NCBI GenBank assembly: GCA_963812015.1
Contig: CAWETI010000003.1
Coordinates: forward strand, 864,001-928,000
Reading direction: 5' to 3'
DNA from: an uncultured delta proteobacterium
Lineage (GTDB): Bacteria > Desulfobacterota > Desulfobaccia > Desulfobaccales > 0-14-0-80-60-11
DNA: 64,000 nucleotides
The translations under genes and the position numbers were made by a program. The notes below the pieces were generated by a model. The model had not been told where the DNA came from and did no database searches. It saw nothing but the letters and a program-made list of their open reading frames with translations. Positions 19,268-28,100 of the stretch are shown here, piece after piece (within the stretch, counting starts at the first letter, position 1; the number at the start of each line of letters is the position of its first letter).

Positions 19268-19684
19268 GCCATCTCCTTTTCCACCAGCGTTTCGCCCCTC
19301 CAGCCTTTAGGTCGTCAACCGCATTAACCTCGTGCCGGTGAGGTTACCGATAAGCTGCAGGCGATCCATGCCCCGGCATTTAGGGTTTTCCTAATTTATT
19401 GATTCCAAAGTTGCCAATTTTTGTTTCCTAATGTGGTCAGCACTCTTTCCACATACCGCATTTTGCTGGGGAACATGAATGGTACATATGGTATTTTAAT
19501 TGCGGAAAGGTTAGGAAGCGATAAACGGGATGACTATTTCTATATGACCATTTTGACCATTTTCGTATGATCATTTTAACCACTTAACAAAAAAATTTGG
19601 GTATTGAATGGAAAAGCAATATGATACCAGTAATGGCCATTCAAAATGGACCCACCCGGTTTATTGCAACACCGAGAGGACAGG

Positions 19685-19900
19685 CTTGACTTTGCACAAA
19701 GGAGATAGTGCGCATGGACCTCCCTCCTAAACCCCCGATTACTCACTCACGTTCCCACCCGAACTGGAAACTACGAATAGGAAACGGACTAGAATTATAG
19801 CCAAATACCGATACACCTGAACAATCTTGACTTTGCACATAAAAGATCGACTGACCTCTTGCAGCCAAAACCGAATAGTTGAGCTTGGCAAGACTATGAT
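19685..19900 (+). mobile_element. Transposase-less remnants of the IS110 family found at 23026-24173
   Basis: Right-end motif CTTGACTTTGCACAWARRAG at 19685 and 19826; donor-loop homologue at 19735-19787; TTGGCAAG-ACTATGAT at 19885. Confidence 0.7.
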
Positions 19901-20327
19901 CCAGACAGCCTCGGCTGGCCTTGCCATGGCTGGTGTTACCCGCCGACCTCCTTACAAATACAGACATCCCCCCATTAAAAACCCGGTAATCCCCAGACCA
20001 AAATCCGGTTAATTACTTATTTTCAGATTGGCACTGGTCAGACATAGTGCAATCAACCTAAGAATTATTATGGCCAAGACTAAACGAGCCTCTTAGGCTA
20101 GGTCAAGCCAAATAATTTCATGATCGAAGAGGGCGCATGGTCATAATCCTTTCCATTCGTTTTTAAGACATGGTGCAAATCATTCAGTCGGTAGGCGAGG
20201 ATTTTTTAGTGTCTAACCGTTCCCGACCTCGGGTTCCTTACAGGCGGCGCGCAAGGATTACGCATCAGATGATGCCACTGCTTAATGTCGCACCATACTT
20301 ATACAAGGATCAAGGGTTCAACCTATC

Positions 20328-21258: not shown

Positions 21259-21480
21259 TTCTACGTGAATTCCTTTTGTCAAGCCTTTTTGTCCTCCAAG
21301 TAGTTAAACCTCCCATCCCTGAGCCTGAGGTTAACAGGCCATCCCTTTGCCGTCGGCCTGCTTCCCAACCAGCATGACCCCGGAAGAGGTGTCAAGGTCG
21401 CGCAGCGCCATAGGGAAACCTTGACACCACGACGGGGCATGCTATTAACTCCTGGCCGAGGCGGATCGCCCAGTACTCAC
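21259..21480 (-). mobile_element. Right-end remnant of the IS110 family found at 26474-28182, interrupted by IS3
   Basis: ~200 bp homologous to 26474-26690, including the GGTGTCAAGGT...ACCTTGACACC hairpin; weak homology resumes after 22863. Confidence 0.8.
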
Positions 21481-21547
21481 TGGTTTGGTCTACAATTCCC
21501 TTGGACACCGATTTGGGTAAAATAAGCTCATCCCAGGAGGTGTCGCA

Positions 21548-21931
21548 ATGGATCAGAATAATGGTTCGCAGCCAGGACCATCGGCCGGAGCCCGTAGGGC
21601 GACCGGAGATGGCCCTGGCCAGAGGGAACAAAAACGTTTTTCCACCCGGCGTAAAGTTGAAATCGTCTTGCGGTTGCTGCGAGGTGAAGATCTGGAACTA
21701 CTTTCCCGGGAACTGGGCGTGACCGCGGCCAGACTCTCCCTTTGGCGAGAGCAATTCCTGACCGCCGGACGGACAGTGCTGAAGAAACCTCCCCAGGACG
21801 CCCGAGACCCGGAGATCGCCCGGCTGCAACAAAAGCTGGGCGAAGTCACCATGGATAACGAGTTCCTCCAGAAGAAGATTGAGCACCTGGAGGACGGCCG
21901 CCCTTTACCGCGGCGGAGGTTGAGGAGATGA
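21548..21931 (+). CDS. IS3-family OrfA (HTH + leucine zipper)
   Basis: RFSTRRKVEIVLRLLRGE...SRELGV...W; EIARLQQKLGEVTMDNEFL. Confidence 0.88.
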   Translation: MDQNNGSQPGPSAGARRATGDGPGQREQKRFSTRRKVEIVLRLLRGEDLELLSRELGVTAARLSLWREQFLTAGRTVLKKPPQDARDPEIARLQQKLGEVTMDNEFLQKKIEHLEDGRPLPRRRLRR

Positions 21932-22818
21932 GCCGGACCACCTCGCCCTCCACGCAGAAACCTTATTCCCTGGTCCGGGTTTGTCGGGTCTGGCGCCTGG
22001 GACGCTCCACCGTGTACTGGCAGCGCCTCCCAAAGACGCAGGCCGCCACCCGCCCAGGACCGCGGGGACCCTGTGCCGATGATGACTTGGCGCAGCATAT
22101 CAGAACCATCCTGGCCGGCTCCCCCTTCCATGGCGAAGGATACCGCAAGGTATGGGCCAGACAGCGCTATGCCGGCCTCAGGACCTCGAAAAGACGGGTT
22201 TTGCGTCTGATGCGAGAGTGCCAGCTCCTGGCTCCCCACCGTCGGGGATGCTCCCCCGGACCCCGGGTCCATGACGGCACCATCACCACCACCCGGGTCA
22301 ATGACATGTGGGGCACCGATATGACCTCTACCTTTACTGCTGAAGAAGGCCAGGCGGCAATCTTCTTCGCAGTAGATCATTGCTCCATGGAATGCACCGG
22401 CATCCACGCGGCCAAGCGCGGGACCCGCTTCGAGGCCCTGGAACCCCTCAGGCAAGGGGTCAAAGAATACTTCGGCCACTTCGCACCCAACGCCGCCCAG
22501 GGCCTGACCCTGCGGCATGACCACGGCAGCCAGTATCTATCCCATGACTTTCAGACGGAAATCGCTTTCCTGGGCATCGAAAGCTCACCGGCATTTGTCA
22601 GGGCTCCCGAAGGCAACGGTTGCGCCGAACGCTTTGTCCGCCTCCCCAAGGAAAACCTGCTCTGGGTGAGGACTTTCGCCACCGTGGAGGAACTGCGCCT
22701 GGCCCTCCTGGACTTTAAGCGGACCTACAACGAAAACTGGATCATCCAGCGCCATGGCTACAAAACCCCGGCCCAGGTGCGCCGGGGACAATCTCAGGTG
22801 TTGCCCCTGGCCGCCTGA
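21928..22818 (+). CDS. IS3-family OrfB DDE transposase (rve)
   Basis: GYRKVW, WGTDMT, HDHGSQY and NGCAERF motifs; ATGA overlap with OrfA. Confidence 0.92.
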   Translation: MSRTTSPSTQKPYSLVRVCRVWRLGRSTVYWQRLPKTQAATRPGPRGPCADDDLAQHIRTILAGSPFHGEGYRKVWARQRYAGLRTSKRRVLRLMRECQLLAPHRRGCSPGPRVHDGTITTTRVNDMWGTDMTSTFTAEEGQAAIFFAVDHCSMECTGIHAAKRGTRFEALEPLRQGVKEYFGHFAPNAAQGLTLRHDHGSQYLSHDFQTEIAFLGIESSPAFVRAPEGNGCAERFVRLPKENLLWVRTFATVEELRLALLDFKRTYNENWIIQRHGYKTPAQVRRGQSQVLPLAA

Positions 22819-23120
22819 TTTAACCCTTTACTGTGTCCAATAAATTGTGGACCGTTACATCACAAGCAATTTTTTTCAACCTGATGGCCCCTGCCTTTCC
22901 CGCCAGTATCCCGATCTTCTTCTATCTTCGCTGCCTAAAATCATCCTCCCCACAAGGGCCACTGTAGGATATGGAGGTCATATCCGCAGCTTTTGCTTAT
23001 TTTTTGATAAGTGAAGGGTTTGGCAAGTAACTATGATGCAAAGGAAGGCCCTGTCTGCCCTATCGCTTGGTGGCATGCTGGGATCCAGGCCGGTCTAACC
23101 AATCAAGGAGGAGACTGAGA

Positions 23121-23825
23121 ATGAGACGCCCCAAGCATCAGGTTACAAGCGAAGCGGATTTATTTGTCGGAATCGACCTGCATAAAAACAGGTGGCACGT
23201 AACCATTCGGACGGTGGACCTGGAGTTGTTCAGCGCCACCATTCCAGGGACCTGGGAATCTTTGCACCGAGTTTTAGCTCGCCCGGCCATTCCCACCAAG
23301 CGGTCTATGAAGCCGGATAGTTTGGATTCCGGCTTCATGACCGGCTGGTGGATCATTGCATCCCCTGCCTGGTTACTCCTACGAGTCTGGTTCCCAAGGA
23401 GTACGGCAACCGGGTCAAGACCGATCGGCGGGACAGCAGTAAACTGGCGCATCTTTTGGCCAAAGGGATGCTGAAGCGGGTGTGGGGGCCCAGTGAAGGG
23501 GAACGTTATCACCGCCAGGTCATCCGCGCCGCCGGCAGTTAGTCAGGGATCTTACGTGGGCATAACCCCATCCCAATACTCCAGTGCGGATAAGGGGCGC
23601 ATGGGCCGCATCACCGGCATCGGCAAGAATACCCTGAGGGCCATCGTGGTAGAAGCCTCATGGAAACTGATCACCAAGGATCAGGTGATGCGCGAGAAAT
23701 ACGACAGGATCAAAATCCGTTCAGGAGGAAAGCGCGCCATTGTGGCCATTGCCCGCACCCTACTACTACGCATGATAAGAATGTTACTGGATAAACAGGC
23801 ATATGCGCTACAGCTGGCACCTTAG
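23121..23825 (+). pseudogene. IS110-family recombinase pseudogene
   Basis: FVGIDLHK, KTDRRDS and GITP...SS...GRIT...KRAIVAIAR spread over several frames, with an internal deletion. Confidence 0.9.
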
Positions 23826-23863
23826 AAAACATGAGAATCTAAAACCGGTTTAGGGTATGGCGA

Positions 23864-23985
23864 GCTGATTGCTGTGTGTGCTTATAGCCTGCAACCACGT
23901 TGGCAAGTTTGTCAGCCCTATTTGAATACCCCGGATTACTTACTTGCGGTCCCACCTGAAGGGGAACCACGAATAAGAGACTGGC
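23864..23985 (+). ncRNA. Predicted IS110 bridge RNA (target loop 23864-23916, donor loop 23931-23984)
   Basis: GCTGA/TCAGC-closed loop containing TTGGCAAG, identical to the left flank at 23020-23027; CCGG/CTGG-closed loop containing TTACT and ATAAGAG, matching the element ends. Confidence 0.7.
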
Positions 23986-24173
23986 TTGGATTCTAACCGG
24001 ATACCGCAACACCTTTGGAACTTGACTTTGCACATAGGAGTATGTCAGCCTTGTTGAATACCCCGGATTACTTACTTGGGGTCCCACCTAAGCGGGGAAC
24101 CACGAATAGGAGACTGGTTTGGATTCTAAAAGAACACCGGGGCACCTTGCCTGCTTGACTTTGCACATAGGAG
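23908..24173 (+). repeat. Two tandem 133-bp units (23908-24040, 24041-24173)
   Basis: Both start TWTGTCAGCC, share the donor loop and end CTTGACTTTGCACATAGGAG. Confidence 0.9.
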
Positions 24174-24323
24174 TTATCCGCTATTCTTACTTCTCCTCTC
24201 CTTCTGCCCTGACCAGTCCTAATTAATTGGCGACCCCGCTCTATCAAAGTGGGACTTCCGAAATCTTAACTAAACGAATATTAGGGATTCCGAAGGTCAA
24301 ATATAGGGAATTAACCAAATGTT

Positions 24324-24340
24324 ATTAGGGAAACCCTAAT
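24324..24340. promoter_or_regulatory. Palindromic operator, LuxR/NarL-RcsB-box-like
   Basis: ATTAGGG-AAA-CCCTAAT upstream of the acyltransferase; related sites at 24281, 24304 and 19380. Confidence 0.45.
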
Positions 24341-24403
24341 TATCCTGAATTATGGAGGTTAATATAATAAAAAATTTGCCTCATTTCGGATAGGAGTGGA
24401 ATA

Positions 24404-25399
24404 ATGTTATCCCATAGTTATCAAATGGTTAAGTTCTCCCTGAGCCTAAGCAAATTTATGCAAATGAGATTGAACAGCTTTCTGTTCCGTTTCCTCCCCT
24501 TCTCCGTCTCCCGATGGTACCTTATGGTCATGGGAAGGCTTTACTATCTTCTGAACTGTACGGAGAAAACCCTGATCCGGAAAACCATTCACCATGTTTT
24601 TCAAAGAAAATTTCCCGCTCCATTCTTGAATCGGAAGATCAAAGCGGTTTTCACTGGAATCTTCAACCATTACCATGAGAAGCTGTTCGTTGCTTATTCT
24701 AATTTTCCCAGGCTGGTGAAATTCTTGAAATCCCGGGTCAGGTTTACCGGGGAGGAGGGTCTTCAGGCGGCGTTGCAGGCTGGCAAGGGGGTTATCCTGG
24801 TCACCGGTCACTTCGGTGCGGTGGAGTTCCTGCCTGGCGCCCTGGCGTTGAATGGCTACCCCACTTCCATGATCTGTCGTTTCCAAACCAACCGCCTACG
24901 GGAATCCATGGGGGAACGGGCGGAAGCGGTCGGCCTGCACCTTATTGATGCGGACGAGGGCAACATCATTCTGTCAGCAATGCAGGCTCTGAAGAAAGGC
25001 GGCATCCTCATCACCGAATGTGACGAGTTTGATGAGTGGCGGCCTGATCCGAAGCGGGATGGTTCCTTTCTCAAATGCAAGCTGCCTTCAGACCGAACTT
25101 TGGAGCTTTTACAGAAACGCTCGGGTGCCCAGGTCATCACGGCCCTGGTACAAAGGCAAGGGAAGAAACACTATGCCTGCAACTTGACGGCCGTCGGCAA
25201 CGAGGCCTTCCCAGCGAACCCACCCATAAGCGAGCAGTGCTTATTGGTGTTGGAAAAGGCAGTTGAAAATTGCCCAGAGCAGTGGTACCAATGGAAGAAG
25301 TTTGGTGCTATGATCAAACCGCAATTGGAGATCGAGCCTGATCGGTATGCAGCTGGATATCTGCCTGATATTGGGTTTCCAATCCCCGATCAAGTATAA
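24404..25399 (+). CDS. Lysophospholipid/lipid A acyltransferase family protein (LpxL-like)
   Basis: GKGVILVTGHFGAVE and PEQWYQW motifs. Confidence 0.85.
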   Translation: MLSHSYQMVKFSLSLSKFMQMRLNSFLFRFLPFSVSRWYLMVMGRLYYLLNCTEKTLIRKTIHHVFQRKFPAPFLNRKIKAVFTGIFNHYHEKLFVAYSNFPRLVKFLKSRVRFTGEEGLQAALQAGKGVILVTGHFGAVEFLPGALALNGYPTSMICRFQTNRLRESMGERAEAVGLHLIDADEGNIILSAMQALKKGGILITECDEFDEWRPDPKRDGSFLKCKLPSDRTLELLQKRSGAQVITALVQRQGKKHYACNLTAVGNEAFPANPPISEQCLLVLEKAVENCPEQWYQWKKFGAMIKPQLEIEPDRYAAGYLPDIGFPIPDQV

Positions 25400-25586
25400 T
25401 CTGGCTGCTAATGAAGGCATCAGATGGGAGCTGGGCTGCCCCGCCTTCCCTGGTTGTCCCTCTACGTCACTTAAAAGGCCCGTGTCAGTCTGATATATTA
25501 GTTGCATATTGGGGAGTCATTTTGTTGCTTACCAAAGGAACTCGAGCAATATAATCATTTATTTCCATTTATAATAGAAGTAACCT

Positions 25587-26282: not shown

Positions 26283-26764
26283 TCATTAGCCATTCTTAAT
26301 GCATAACCCCACCTGAACGCATGCATTTCCACTGTTGCGGAAGGAAATCATAAAAATGGGGGCTAAAGCACAGGCTCTACAGGCTGCTTGTCCGGCGGTT
26401 CGGGCCACAGAAACCCACCCTTGATTTTGGTCCGGGCTCATTTTTCACGGAGAGGGATAATTCAAGGTTACTGCTTCTATGTGGGTTCCTCTTGTCAAGC
26501 CTTTTTTGTCTTCCGGGCAGTTAAACCTCCATCCCTGAGCCCGAGGTCAAAAGGCCATCCCTTCGCCGTCGGCCTGCTTCCCCAGCCGCATGCCCAGGAA
26601 GAGGTGTCAAGGTCGCAGGGCGCCGCAGGGAAACCTTGACACCTCGACGGGGCATGCTAAAAACCTCAGACCGAGGCGAAGAGAGCTATCCTCCTAGGCA
26701 ATTTTTGTTAGAGACCTGTGAGCCGTTTTGGTTGGTTGGTTCCGGTAAATCGATGGGGCCAAAG

Positions 26765-26948: not shown

Positions 26949-28100
26949 TTAAATTGCCAGTGGCCTTACCTGGGCTCCTTCCGGGACCACCCCGTACTCC
27001 AGAAAACGCCACAGATCGATGAGCAGCCGCCGGGCCAGGGCCACGATGCCGATGCGTCGCATGCGGCTCCCGCCAGCGGCAAACCTTTCCAGGAACCACC
27101 GGCTTAACTTGCTTCGGGGTTGAAACCGCAGCCAGGCCCAGGCGATCTCAATGGCCAGGGTGCGCACCCTCCGGTTACCCGCTTTACTGATCCCTTGTTC
27201 TCGCAACCTCTTGCCGCTGTCGTAAGGGGTAGAGGTCAGGCCCGCCAGGGCGGCCACTTCCCGGCGGTTCCGAAAACGGCGCCAGCCGAAAAACTCCATG
27301 ACGAAGGTCCAGGAACTTACCGGGCCGATCCCGGGCAGCCTCAGGAGCTGGGCCACTTGCGCCATCCTGGCGTTCTCTACTTTAAGAAGCTGCGTTTTCT
27401 CTTTTGCCAGGCCGCTGATCTGCTCCTCCACCATGCGTAGCCGTTCATGCACCCGTACCAGCCGCACCTTCATCTCGGCTGGCAATTCCCGGCCTTCCCA
27501 GGTGCGCATGAGTTCCAACTCCTTGACAAACTTTTTCGTGCTCGGGTTGCTGACACGCAGCCCTTGTTGAATCAAAATCCCATGGATCCGGTTGCGGTGC
27601 CGGGTCCGCTCGCTCTTCAAGGCCTCCAATTCCCGGTGTAAATGCCTGGCGTCCTCATCCTCCCGGCTCGGCACCCGCACCACCCGCCACAGGTGCTTCT
27701 CCCCGCCGTGATAGCGGAGCAGCATGCTCAATAGTTTCCCCGCATCGACCCGGTCGGTTTTCGCCCTCCGCAACCGCCGGTTCACTTCCAGGCTGGCAGA
27801 GTCCACCACCACATTGTCTATCCCGCAGCTGTGCAAATACCGGTGCAGCCAAAAACCGTCACGTCCGGCCTCATAACAGCTCACCGTGTGCACCTTGTCC
27901 CCCATACCGAAATGCCGCTTGGCTCCGATAATCGCTCTTTGGACTTGGGCCAGGTCCCCAGCAGTCACGGTGAGATGCCGCAACTTGCTGCCATCGGTGC
28001 ACGCCATCTTCCAGGTGCTGTTAGCCAGTTCGAAGGCGACGTACAAAACCGGCACCTGGGCGCTCTGTTCTCGACCCTGGTTTCCCTGCTTGTGGTCCAT
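26949..28100 (-). CDS. IS110-family recombinase (RuvC-like DEDD + Tnp20)
   Basis: VAFEL, YEAGRDGFWL, KTDRVDA, LPGIGP, DSG...EQGISKAGN and IVALARRL motifs. Confidence 0.95.
   Translation of the reverse strand: MDHKQGNQGREQSAQVPVLYVAFELANSTWKMACTDGSKLRHLTVTAGDLAQVQRAIIGAKRHFGMGDKVHTVSCYEAGRDGFWLHRYLHSCGIDNVVVDSASLEVNRRLRRAKTDRVDAGKLLSMLLRYHGGEKHLWRVVRVPSREDEDARHLHRELEALKSERTRHRNRIHGILIQQGLRVSNPSTKKFVKELELMRTWEGRELPAEMKVRLVRVHERLRMVEEQISGLAKEKTQLLKVENARMAQVAQLLRLPGIGPVSSWTFVMEFFGWRRFRNRREVAALAGLTSTPYDSGKRLREQGISKAGNRRVRTLAIEIAWAWLRFQPRSKLSRWFLERFAAGGSRMRRIGIVALARRLLIDLWRFLEYGVVPEGAQVRPLAI

What the first reader, a model, noticed from the sequence alone, without database searches (positions are those of the whole stretch)
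23020..24173. IS110 bridge RNA duplicated exactly at its own target guide (self-targeting or nested insertion)
Seen: after the broken recombinase, a GCTGA/TCAGC-closed loop contains TTGGCAAG (23900-23907), identical to the element's left flank (23020-23027). Two 133-bp units follow, each with a loop carrying TTACT and ATARGAG (matching the predicted circle junction CATAGG-AG-TAAC) and each ending in a full right end. The duplication breakpoint falls right after the AG core of the target guide (AG|TTTGTCAGCC vs AG|TATGTCAGCC). Known: IS110 bridge RNAs carry target- and donor-binding loops around a 2-nt core; AG is the reverse complement of the IS621 CT core. Inference: the DNA encoding the guide is itself a target half-site, so the element recombined into a bridge-RNA gene. 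This would build tandem donor loops and offer a route to guide shuffling and array formation.
Basis: partly seen in the sequence, partly recalled or inferred. Interest (0 to 1): 0.85.

Follow-up and report, generated by a model that had tools for sequence, protein, structure and literature searches.

The report
Two jumping-gene tails joined at guide DNA
A dead RNA-guided insertion sequence carries a second, foreign copy of its non-coding tail joined exactly where its own guide RNA gene spells out the target, which suggests that such guide genes can themselves be hit by the recombinase, a variant of behaviour recently described for this family.

Summary
The coordinates and junctions are right. 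23028-24173 is an IS1111-type IS110-family element with a broken recombinase gene and a 3' bridge/seek RNA gene. A paralogous empty site (C3:1008037|8) shows that all 1146 bp are insert.

Relatives confirm the guide logic. TTGGCAAG (23900-23907) is the left-target guide, and guides covary with flanks. Of the relatives fetched, 22 showed the tail and each has one copy, so the second 133-bp unit is extra. It starts exactly after the AG core of that guide.

It is not a duplication:
- Unit 1 is 95.5% identical to the tail of a relative in another genome, and unit 2 is 96.2% identical to another relative. The two units are only 84.8% alike.
- The element is a mosaic. Body and unit 2 belong to one sublineage, unit 1 to another.

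Best reading (about 0.55): a resident element was hit at the TTGGCA-AG encoded by its own guide gene, a "half-match" site, by a related element or its tail module. Homologous recombination then trimmed the product. The main rival is sequential insertion at the neighbouring repeat's own TTGGCA-AG.

I found no second case of this junction in 82 other genomes or in metagenome contigs. ORF-less tail modules starting at the homologous boundary are common in the order. Modular and tandem IS110 tails and half-match recombination are already in print.

The parts
22873..23027 (+). 3' part of a dispersed repeat ('T', about 222 bp when whole) that ends ..gataagtgaagggTTTGGCAAG. It supplies the left target (LT) and the AG core at 23026-27.
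   Evidence: BLAST of 21301-23027 finds about 12 other copies of the last 90-155 bp in G000. 14 GGTTTGGCAAG sites have a conserved left side and a variable right side. Copies are aligned. The empty paralog is T|flank at C3:1008037|8.
23028..23120 (+). Left end and 5' leader of the IS (TAACTATGATGCAAAGG..). Subterminal inverted repeat: CTATGATGCAAAG against the reverse complement of the right end, CTATGTGCAAAG.
   Evidence: Read from the sequence. Aligned with C2:800056 onward. Nearest relative L016, 87%. 13 L016-like against 2 L021-like informative sites.
23121..23825 (+). Broken DEDD recombinase gene: frame breaks and a deletion of about 349 bp at 23550/23551.
   Evidence: Pfam Transposase_20 on 23493-23825, E 9.5e-10; the N-terminal pieces give no hit. 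Three tblastn pieces against P0001. Alignment with the intact 352-aa gene. 23121-23700 is L016-like at 57 of 62 informative sites that match either relative.
23850..23920 (+). Target-binding loop of the bridge/seek RNA gene:
- outer stem 23850-62 with 23908-20
- right-target guide, about 23864-73 (GCTGATTGCT)
- inner hairpin 23874-99
- left-target guide TTGGCAAG 23900-07
   Evidence: RNAalifold on 20 relatives: 29 pairs, 17 with compensatory changes. Guide/flank covariation. Nearest relatives of 23826-23907 are L169 and L048, not L016.
23908..24040 (+). Unit 1: 3' strand of the target-loop stem, donor-binding loop (5' strand 23935-45, hairpin 23946-71, 3' strand AATAAGAGA 23972-80), right end cttgactttgcacatagg+AG (24021-40). 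Of the L021-like sublineage.
   Evidence: 95.5% identical to the L021 unit and 84.8% to unit 2. 13 L021-like and 0 L016-like informative sites.
24041..24173 (+). Unit 2: a second stem-strand + donor loop + right end, starting TATGTCAGCC right after unit 1's AG and ending cataggAG|TTATCCGC at the natural right flank. Of the L016-like sublineage, the same as the element's body.
   Evidence: 96.2% identical to the L016 unit. 12 L016-like and 1 L021-like informative sites. The right flank continues the empty paralog. A Logan contig of run X1 covers 24012-24120 with 0 differences.
19651..19902 (+). A second pile-up of remnants of the same family: a right-end fragment ending ..gcacaaaggAG (to 19704), directly followed by a 141-bp ORF-less 'Form A' unit (19705-19845), then TTGGCAAG|ACTATGATCC (19885-19902), a left-end stump.
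   Evidence: Sequence. nhmmer hits at C3:883730-883841 and 883682-883704. Form A context list.

Best explanation
The locus holds a dead IS1111-type (IS110-family) insertion sequence that landed in the end of a dispersed repeat at TTGGCA-AG|TTATC.

Layout (shown). Its non-coding 3' end encodes a bridge/seek RNA with two loops. The target loop holds a 5' guide complementary to AG plus the right flank, and a 3' guide, TTGGCAAG, identical to the left flank plus AG. The donor loop matches the element's own ends.

The half-site (follows from the layout). Because the left-target guide is a DNA copy of the left target plus core, every inserted element carries a second 'left half-site' about 0.9-1.2 kb inside itself.

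The event (inferred). In this copy, a resident element of one sublineage (L016-like) was recombined at that internal TTGGCA-AG with a related element of another sublineage (L021-like). The incoming DNA was either a whole circle, later trimmed by homologous recombination between the two bodies, or a tail-only partial circle. This placed a foreign RNA gene/tail (unit 1, ending in a right end) in front of the resident's own tail (unit 2).

The result is a mosaic element with two donor loops and two right ends. It is now inert in cis, because the recombinase gene is broken. An intact relative sits on contig C2.

Shown: the anatomy, the guide logic, the two lineages, the exact junctions and the empty site. 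Inferred: that the recombinase made the joint, and that the half-site used was the guide gene's rather than the repeat's.
For: Family and layout:
- The intact relative encodes a 352-aa protein with DEDD_Tnp_IS110 and Transposase_20. The non-coding region lies 3' of the gene.

Guides:
- The best match of the own right flank to the target-loop region is at least 8 of 9 in 14 of 20 elements, against 11 of 380 swapped pairings.
- The own left flank matches at least 7 of 9 in 17 of 20, against 111 of 380.
- The variable base of the right end (ataGgag / ataCag / ataTag) agrees with the donor-loop 3' strand in 26 of 26 elements where both motifs were found, out of 36 examined.
- Consensus fold: 17 of 29 pairs have compensatory changes.

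Single unit is the norm:
- One unit per locus in the 22 related loci that have a hit, of 70 searched.
- C2 ends after one unit.

Two lineages:
- u1-L021 95.5%, u2-L016 96.2%, u1-u2 84.8%.
- Informative sites, L016-like/L021-like: 23028-23700, 70/7; 23701-23907, 8/10 with 9 neither; u1, 0/13; u2, 12/1.
- The target-loop segment groups with L169/L048/L021-type copies, not with L016. This fits a crossover near the gene's 3' end.

Boundaries:
- The empty paralog shows that the insert is exactly 23028-24173.

The rival's precursor was not found:
- 0 of 83 genomes hold a solo unit starting TNTGTCAGCC beside a non-IS GGCAAG. The 2 pattern hits lie in coding sequence with no unit.

Recurrence of the boundary:
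- ORF-less 'Form A' units begin at the position homologous to the first base after the guide's AG.
- They follow ..GCAAG in 17 contexts and a right end's AG in 3.

Precedent:
- One flanking arm plus the core suffices for IS621 recombination in vitro and explains off-target insertions (10.64898/2026.08.31.748434, abstract and section 8 read).
- ISPpu9 makes circles of its tail module alone at AG dinucleotides (PMC12288879, sections 15 and 18 part 1 read).
Against: - It is a single case. The RE-AG|TNTGTCAGCC junction is in 1 of 83 genomes of the order, G000 only, and in 0 metagenome contigs.
- The unresolved nested junction (guide-AG|left end) is in 0 of 83 genomes and in 0 of the 8 true elements among 114 metagenome rows.
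- The right half of the site (TATGTCAG) does not match any lineage's right-target guide, so the event needs half-site tolerance. That has been shown for IS621, not for this family.
- The three other tandem cases (window 19705, L112, L195) fit re-use of an external ..GGCA-AG next to an existing unit equally well.
- The 23701-23907 stretch is too mixed to place the crossover, so whole-element plus trimming cannot be told from tail-only insertion.
- MAGs break or collapse repeats, so absence elsewhere is weak evidence.
- The read support comes from one run that may be the assembly's own source. Its contig has only 29 letters left of the joint.
Confidence: 0.55

Rival explanations
1. Sequential insertions at the repeat's own site. 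First a tail-only unit (unit 2) sat alone next to the repeat's TTGGCA-AG. It came either from a partial circle or from deletion of the rest of a resident element between the two TTGGCAAG copies. Later an already chimeric full element inserted at the same external TTGGCA-AG, upstream of it.
For: - The left junction of any insert keeps the left target plus AG, so it can be hit again.
- Three independent arrangements show a right end's AG followed directly by a solo-type unit: window 19704|19705, L112 and L195.
- Solo units next to ..GGCAAG are the commonest state in the order: 38 of 69 by regex, against 12 of 69 with a full RNA gene.
- Re-insertion into occupied IS110 loci is reported (10.64898/2026.08.14.744561, passages read).
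Against: - No solo unit with the TNTGTCAGCC start exists in 83 genomes.
- The match of lineage between body and unit 2, and the foreign unit 1, would have to be coincidence plus an earlier chimera.
- This route still needs the guide's AG as the left boundary of the solo unit.
Confidence: 0.22
2. The joints were made without the recombinase, by slippage or illegitimate recombination. The short repeats would be the 8-9 bp TTGGCAAG copies, or AGT microhomology at the right end. Any later insertion or conversion is incidental.
For: - T's TTGGCAAG and the guide's TTGGCAAG are direct repeats. Any crossover inside them gives the same product, so 'exactly after AG' is not by itself proof of site-specific cleavage.
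- The element is old and decayed.
Against: - The unit 1|unit 2 joint links cataggAG to TATGTC with only 2-3 shared bases, yet falls on the AG core used at every canonical junction.
- Both units are lineage-pure up to the joint: 0/13 and 12/1. That argues against homologous exchange inside the unit.
- The same boundary recurs in the Form A family.
Confidence: 0.12
3. In-place tandem duplication of the element's own tail, by replication slippage or unequal sister exchange, followed by divergence.
For: Two adjacent units of equal length, period 133, 2.0 copies.
Against: - Each unit is about 96% identical to a different relative in another genome, but only 84.8% to its neighbour.
- Lineage-informative sites split 0/13 against 12/1.
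Confidence: 0.03
4. Assembly artefact: a chimera of strains that carry different element variants at one site.
For: The genome is a metagenome-type assembly with 5.72% contamination. Contigs laid from run X1 leave 23716-23919 uncovered.
Against: - An independently built Logan contig of run X1 reads 24012-24120 with 0 differences across the joint.
- Single-unit elements contain no cataggag+tatgtcagcc word from which a graph could build the joint.
- The run may be the assembly's own source, so this is not independent support.
Confidence: 0.05

Closest known systems
IS1111-group insertion sequences with a 3' seekRNA (ISEc11, ISKpn4, ISPst6, ISPa11; Siddiquee et al. 2024, PMC11187229; abstract and passages read)
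   Same: - DEDD recombinase.
- Long non-coding region downstream of the gene.
- Subterminal inverted repeats.
- Short RNA segments that match both strands of the target.
- Insertion into ends or sites of other repeats and mobile elements, without added bases.
   Different: This lineage is from uncultured Syntrophobacterales-type bacteria. Its target is the end of a roughly 222-bp dispersed repeat. This copy carries two tails from two sublineages.
ISPpu9 with MITEPpu9 (ssr9) of Pseudomonas putida (PMC12288879; abstract, sections 15 and 18 part 1 read)
   Same: - An IS110-family element followed directly by a small ORF-less module that shares an AG at the joint.
- Solo copies elsewhere in the genome.
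- Tandem copies in some strains.
- Circles of the module alone.
- Crossovers at AG.
   Different: - In ISPpu9 the module has its own copies of both end boxes (A'/B'), the sRNA is dispensable, and the bridge RNA lies upstream of the gene.
- Here the module is the donor-loop half of the bridge RNA gene itself. Only its right end resembles the element's end, and its left boundary is the core of the left-target guide.
Half-match recombination and partial circles / tandem non-coding units of IS110 elements (bioRxiv 10.64898/2026.08.31.748434 and 10.64898/2026.08.14.744561; abstracts, section 8 and section 9 and passages read)
   Same: - Recombination needs only the core plus one matching arm.
- Partial modules re-use the right (RD) terminus with a recurrent internal endpoint.
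- Non-coding units accumulate in tandem next to the recombinase gene.
- Occupied loci are hit again.
   Different: - In the text I read, those studies do not tie the internal endpoint to the DNA that encodes the left-target guide ('guide-encoding', 'bRNA gene' and 'self-target': 0 occurrences).
- Their figures and supplements were not visible to me.
- Their tandem calls required at least 95% identity between units, which this 84% pair would fail.
IS621 bridge RNA (Durrant et al. 2024; Hiraizumi et al. 2024; recalled, not read here)
   Same: Two internal-loop hairpins, each with a 5' and a 3' guide around a 2-nt core. One loop is for the target and one for the donor.
   Different: In IS621 the RNA gene lies upstream of the recombinase gene and the core is CT. 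Here it lies downstream and the core is AG.

Membership tests
IS110 family, IS1111 group | DEDD (RuvC-like) N-terminal domain plus IS116/IS110/IS902 C-terminal domain in the recombinase | tested here: met
   The intact relative P0001 has PF01548 (E 8.9e-13) and PF02371 (E 5.8e-26). The window copy keeps only PF02371 (E 9.5e-10) and is broken.
IS110 family, IS1111 group | Long non-coding region downstream of the recombinase gene | tested here: met
   About 220 bp lie between the stop codon and the right end in C2 and in the relatives.
IS110 family, IS1111 group | Subterminal inverted repeats | tested here: met
   CTATGATGCAAAG sits 3 nt inside the left end. CTATGTGCAAAG is the reverse complement of ctttgcacatag, 3 nt inside the right end. 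12 of 13 positions agree, with one indel; read. The family criterion comes from PMC11187229.
Bridge/seek RNA-guided recombination | RNA segments matching the target flanks on both strands, changing with the target | tested here: met
   Own against swapped flanks: 14/20 against 11/380 for the right guide, 17/20 against 111/380 for the left guide.
Bridge/seek RNA-guided recombination | RNA segments matching the element's own ends (donor loop) | tested here: met
   The right-end variant base agrees with the donor-loop 3' strand in 26 of 26. The 5' strand carries TTACT, complementary to AG+TAA.
Bridge/seek RNA-guided recombination | Conserved two-hairpin internal-loop structure | tested here: met
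   RNAalifold gives 29 pairs, 17 with compensatory changes. No Rfam family matches.
Bridge/seek RNA-guided recombination | The RNA is made and binds the recombinase; a circle junction forms a promoter | not testable with these tools
   Joining the ends would give TTGACT-17 nt-TATGAT, read. RNA-library contigs of relatives cover the region, but that does not show transcription.
MITE-like tail module (as MITEPpu9) | Solo and tandem ORF-less copies at the same kind of target | tested here: met
   G000 has 5 solo units. In the order, 38 of 69 are solo forms by regex. Tandems occur at window 19705, L112 and L195.
MITE-like tail module (as MITEPpu9) | Both module ends resemble the parent element's ends (A'/B' boxes) | tested here: not met
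   The right end is the same. The left ends (TATGTCAGCC.., nTAGTGCGCATCGACC.., nTATGCGGCGG..) do not resemble TAACTATGATGC.

The most novel reading that the evidence does not exclude
In IS1111-type elements, the DNA that encodes the left-target guide may be a built-in recombination site. That would split the element into two exchangeable modules: left end + recombinase gene + target loop, and donor loop + right end.

The modules would separate and rejoin at the AG core. This would swap RNA halves between sublineages (natural re-pairing of targeting and donor recognition) and seed the abundant ORF-less 'Form A' tail units of this bacterial order.

Going further, the host repeat's end (GGCGATAACTG..TGGCAAG) may itself be a decayed target loop. 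The family's usual landing site would then be guide DNA.
Probability: 0.25. Interest if true: 0.7.

Novelty: new variant of a known kind. Interest (0 to 1): 0.5.

Why it matters
Bridge/seek RNA recombinases are being developed as programmable genome-insertion tools. Their off-target and self-directed reactions are only now being mapped.

If the gene for the guide is itself a half-site, two things follow:
- Every construct or natural element carries an internal weak spot next to its own RNA gene.
- Nature has a simple route to mix targeting and donor-recognition halves between elements, and to shed small parasitic tail modules.

Here the evidence is one well-defined mosaic locus, plus a family of tail-only units that start at the homologous boundary. 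It is a concrete, testable example rather than a demonstration.

Tried and rejected
- Rfam: no family fits the region or the T repeat. There was one chance hit, HLE, at E 0.93.
- Single-sequence fold of 23826-24045: z-score -1.0, not informative. It was replaced by the comparative fold.
- Searches for a second case:
  - RE-AG|TNTGTCAGCC: 0 of 82 other genomes and 0 metagenome contigs.
  - Guide-AG|left end: 0 of 83 genomes.
Only 8 were real elements, all with the normal arrangement.
- Solo unit of the window's own type: 2 pattern hits, both inside coding sequence with no unit.
- Idea that T plus a Form A unit is one composite mini-element: rejected as a general rule. Form A units also follow non-T flanks that end GTGGCAAG (L122, L123, L126, L131, L140). 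T's left flanks also show no ..GGCA-AG.
- The pair L138/L140 shares 450 bp starting at the unit's first base, but it ends at no recognisable IS end. Left unexplained.
- Orthologous loci in 15 genomes of the genus carry the flanking gene but no T, IS or unit upstream, so they give no intermediate state.
- Reads: contigs laid from run X1 leave 23716-23919 uncovered. The other runs hold only relatives' pieces. RNA-library contigs do not show transcription.
- T as mini copies of a Xer-like recombinase element (earlier notes): PF00589 hits lie beside 3 T pieces, but in inconsistent orientation. Not settled.
- Not used: structure prediction, complex prediction and protein database searches. The question was about DNA and RNA.
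Full report
**What is there.** The window lies at G000:C3:864001-928000.

- Positions 23028-24173 are an IS110-family element. Three ORF fragments match an intact 352-aa relative at aa 4-54, 56-132 and 261-351. Only the C-terminal piece still scores as Transposase_20.
- Alignment with the one intact copy in the genome (C2:800056-801427, 86-87% identical) shows small frame-breaking gaps and a deletion of about 349 bp at 23550/51.
- The intact protein has DEDD_Tnp_IS110 and Transposase_20.
- The long non-coding region lies 3' of the gene, and the ends carry subterminal inverted repeats (CTATGATGCAAAG / CTATGTGCAAAG). These are the marks of the IS1111 group as described in PMC11187229 (abstract and passages read).
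- Joining the ends would give TTGACT-17 nt-TATGAT. This is a promoter-like junction read from the sequence, not tested.

**The tandem.** TRF reports period 133, 2.0 copies, 83% matches at 23906-24174.

- The intact C2 copy ends after one unit.
- Of the 70 related loci fetched from other genomes, 22 gave a hit to the unit, and each has one unit after the gene within 1.5 kb.
- The junctions are:
  - ..tttggcaAG|TAACTATG.. (23027/28)
  - ..ccacgttggcaAG|TTTGTCAGCC (23907/08)
  - ..cataggAG|TATGTCAGCC (24040/41)
  - ..cataggAG|TTATCCGC (24173/74)
- A paralogous block in the same genome carries the same repeat and the same flank with nothing between them..ggttttggcaag|gtatcagccattctc.., 91% identical to the window's flank from 24175 on. 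So the whole 1146 bp is insert and unit 2's right junction is the canonical one.

**The RNA gene.** Twenty relatives fold into two internal-loop hairpins; 17 of 29 pairs have compensatory changes.

- In the first hairpin, the 5' strand of the loop is the reverse complement of AG plus the right flank. The 3' strand equals the left flank plus AG.
- With each element's own flanks, the right guide matches at least 8 of 9 in 14 of 20 elements, against 11 of 380 swapped pairings. The left guide matches at least 7 of 9 in 17 of 20, against 111 of 380. The left control is inflated because many elements share the GGCAAG target.
- In the second hairpin, the 3' strand copies the right end. Its one variable base agrees with the right end in 26 of 26 elements where both motifs were found, out of 36 examined. 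The 5' strand holds TTACT, complementary to AG+TAA of the left end.
- The helix that closes that loop is TTAGGGyATGGCG with TGTCAGCCCTG. It is not GCTGA/TCAGC; GCTGA lies in the variable right-target guide.
- The 133-bp unit is therefore: 3' strand of the target-loop stem + donor loop + right end.

**Not a duplication.**

- Unit 1 is 95.5% identical to the unit of L021 and unit 2 is 96.2% identical to that of L016; both relatives come from other genomes. The two units are 84.8% alike.
- At sites where L016 and L021 differ, the window follows them as below.

| Segment | L016-like | L021-like | Neither |
|---|---|---|---|
| 23028-23700 | 70 | 7 | 3 |
| 23701-23907 | 8 | 10 | 9 |
| Unit 1 | 0 | 13 | 1 |
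| Unit 2 | 12 | 1 | 1 |

- By segment, the nearest relatives are L016 for the left end and most of the gene, L012/L013-type copies for 23701-23825, L169/L048 for the target loop, L021 for unit 1 and L016 for unit 2.
- The element is a mosaic: resident-type body, foreign RNA gene and tail, then the resident-type tail again.

**How it most likely arose.** The left-target guide is by construction a DNA copy of the left target plus core. An inserted element therefore carries TTGGCA-AG twice in direct order.

- A related element, or a tail-only circle, recombining at the internal copy would give exactly the observed right-hand joints.
- If a whole element came in, homologous recombination between the two 86-94% identical bodies would remove one body's worth. 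That leaves the resident 5' part, the incoming RNA gene and unit 1, then the resident's unit 2. This is the observed order, with the switch near the 3' end of the gene.
- The right half of the site (TATGTCAG) matches no lineage's right guide, so the reaction would be a half-site event.
- Such events are reported for IS621. The core plus one arm suffices in vitro and accounts for 47% of non-target insertion reads (10.64898/2026.08.31.748434, abstract and section 8 read).
- Both units are lineage-pure up to the joint. This argues for exchange at the AG rather than homologous crossover inside the unit.

**The main rival.** The AG next to the host repeat's own TTGGCA could have been used twice: first by a tail-only unit, then by a chimeric full element.

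- In favour:
  - Window 19704|19705, L112 and L195 show a right end's AG followed at once by a solo-type unit.
  - Solo units beside ..GGCAAG are the commonest state in the order.
  - Of the 71 donor-loop motif hits outside G000, I fetched 69. A regex sorts them into 12 with a full RNA gene, 19 'Form A', 19 'Form B' and 19 others. By eye, about 8 of the others are Form A variants.
- Against:
  - No solo unit with the window's TNTGTCAGCC start exists in 83 genomes; the 2 pattern hits are chance hits in genes.
  - The shared lineage of body and unit 2 would be a coincidence.
- Even this route needs the guide's AG as the left boundary of the solo unit.
- A non-enzymatic origin cannot be excluded for joints between the two TTGGCAAG copies, because any crossover inside the 8-bp repeat gives the same product.

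**Generality.**

- The specific junction was found nowhere else: 1 of 83 genomes, 0 metagenome contigs, and no unresolved nested junction. MAGs handle repeats poorly, so this is weak negative evidence.
- On the other side, Form A units (about 140-150 bp; nTAGTGCGCATCGACCTCC..donor loop..right end) align colinearly with the post-guide part of the family's RNA gene. They begin at the position homologous to the first base after the guide's AG.
- They follow ..GCAAG in 17 contexts, both T-type and other flanks, and a right end in 3. No full-length parent with that stem strand was seen.
- This looks like a tail-module family with the same left boundary. It resembles MITEPpu9 of ISPpu9, where circles of the tail alone, solo copies and tandem copies are documented, with crossovers at AG (PMC12288879).

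**Reality of the assembly.** A Logan contig of run X1 reads 24012-24120 without a difference across the unit 1|unit 2 joint. It has only 29 letters on the left, and the run may be the assembly's own source. Long reads are still needed.

**What is known already.**

- Tandem accumulation of non-coding units beside IS110 recombinase genes (n = 468), partial circles that re-use the right terminus with recurrent internal endpoints, multiple donor loops in one locus, and re-insertion into occupied loci are described in a 2026 preprint (10.64898/2026.08.14.744561; abstract, passages and section 9 read).
- In the text I could read, the internal endpoint is not linked to guide-encoding DNA. The terms 'guide-encoding', 'bRNA gene' and 'self-target' do not occur.
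- A library search for 'bridge RNA' + 'self-targeting' + 'recombinase' gave two reviews.
- I could not see that preprint's figures and supplements, and they may bear on this point.
- I therefore file the locus as a new variant of a known kind, not a new kind.

**Verdict.** 'Duplication' is wrong. 'Recombination at the guide-encoding half-site' is the best but unproven reading, at about 0.55, with 0.22 for sequential use of the repeat's own site. Interest is moderate.

Noticed in passing
window 22873-23027; G000 C2:783-812 kb, C3:1004-1010 kb, C3:1660-1679 kb and elsewhere: The IS sits in the end of a dispersed repeat, 'T'. T is about 222 bp when whole, runs from TAACTGCTATGA.. to ..GATAAGTGAAGGGTTTGGCAAG, and also has a short form of about 100 bp. 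There are 16 or more whole or partial copies, clustered. Earlier notes of this scan read them as gene-less mini copies of an element with a Xer-like recombinase. I found tyrosine-recombinase hits beside only 3 T pieces, in inconsistent orientation.
   Followed up: partly
T ends, e.g. L128, L093, L143 and window 23005-23027: The last 25 nt or so of T (GGCGATAACTG..N8-10..TGGCAAG) resemble the IS target loop without its inner hairpin (GGCGA..GATAACTG..TTGGCAAG). T's left end, TAAC(TGC)TATGA, resembles the IS left end, TAACTATGA. This may be chance, target mimicry or common descent.
   Followed up: partly
L149 (G059:C668) and L103 (G041:C11): ORF-less derivatives. L149 joins the first 55 nt or so of T directly to a complete bridge RNA gene and right end. 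L103 joins about 60 nt of the IS left end to the donor loop.
   Followed up: no
loci L086-L142 ('Form B'); G000 C3:448511-448613(-), 839840-839946, 837924-838016: A second solo form of about 100 bp: ..GGCAAG|nTATGCGGCGGTCCC..donor-loop 3' half..right end. The intact target word GGCAAGnTAT stands where the donor loop's 5' guide should be. The same nTATGCGG word matches the right-target guides of some lineages (L195, L241). Its origin is unexplained.
   Followed up: partly
L018 about 2700 onward; L241: In two relatives the donor loop is cut at CACGAATAG|ACATAATGG.. by another element whose gene starts ..LYVGLDVHK.., which is IS110-like. A different IS110-family element may therefore target the donor-guide DNA of this one.
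   Followed up: no
window 27033-28046 (-); also C3:449973-450986 and eight further loci: There are two more IS110-family lineages in the genome, 28% and 23% identical to P0001, with 2 and 8 copies. One copy lies 3 kb downstream of the finding. A repeat of about 160 bp (window 21302-21463 and 26519-26678) accompanies one of them.
   Followed up: no
window 21548-22818: An IS3-family element (orfA with HTH_Tnp_1, orfB with rve) abuts the truncated 5' side of this T copy. It has one other partial copy, at C2:725616-725958.
   Followed up: no
window 24174-25400 and G000 C3:1008039-1009257: T plus the downstream lipid-A-acyltransferase-like gene is a duplicated block within the genome, at 91% identity. 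Orthologues of the gene in 15 genomes of the genus lack T.
   Followed up: partly
L138 / L140 (G044): Two loci share 450 bp at 96% identity. The shared stretch starts at the first base of a Form A unit and runs 300 bp beyond its right end, past a second ..TTTGGCAAG. The left flanks differ.
   Followed up: partly
run X15 on window 23657-23951 and 24115-24173: Contigs from a wetland RNA library carry relatives' gene 3' end, target loop and donor loop in one piece, and a right end running into another flank. This does not show transcription.
   Followed up: no
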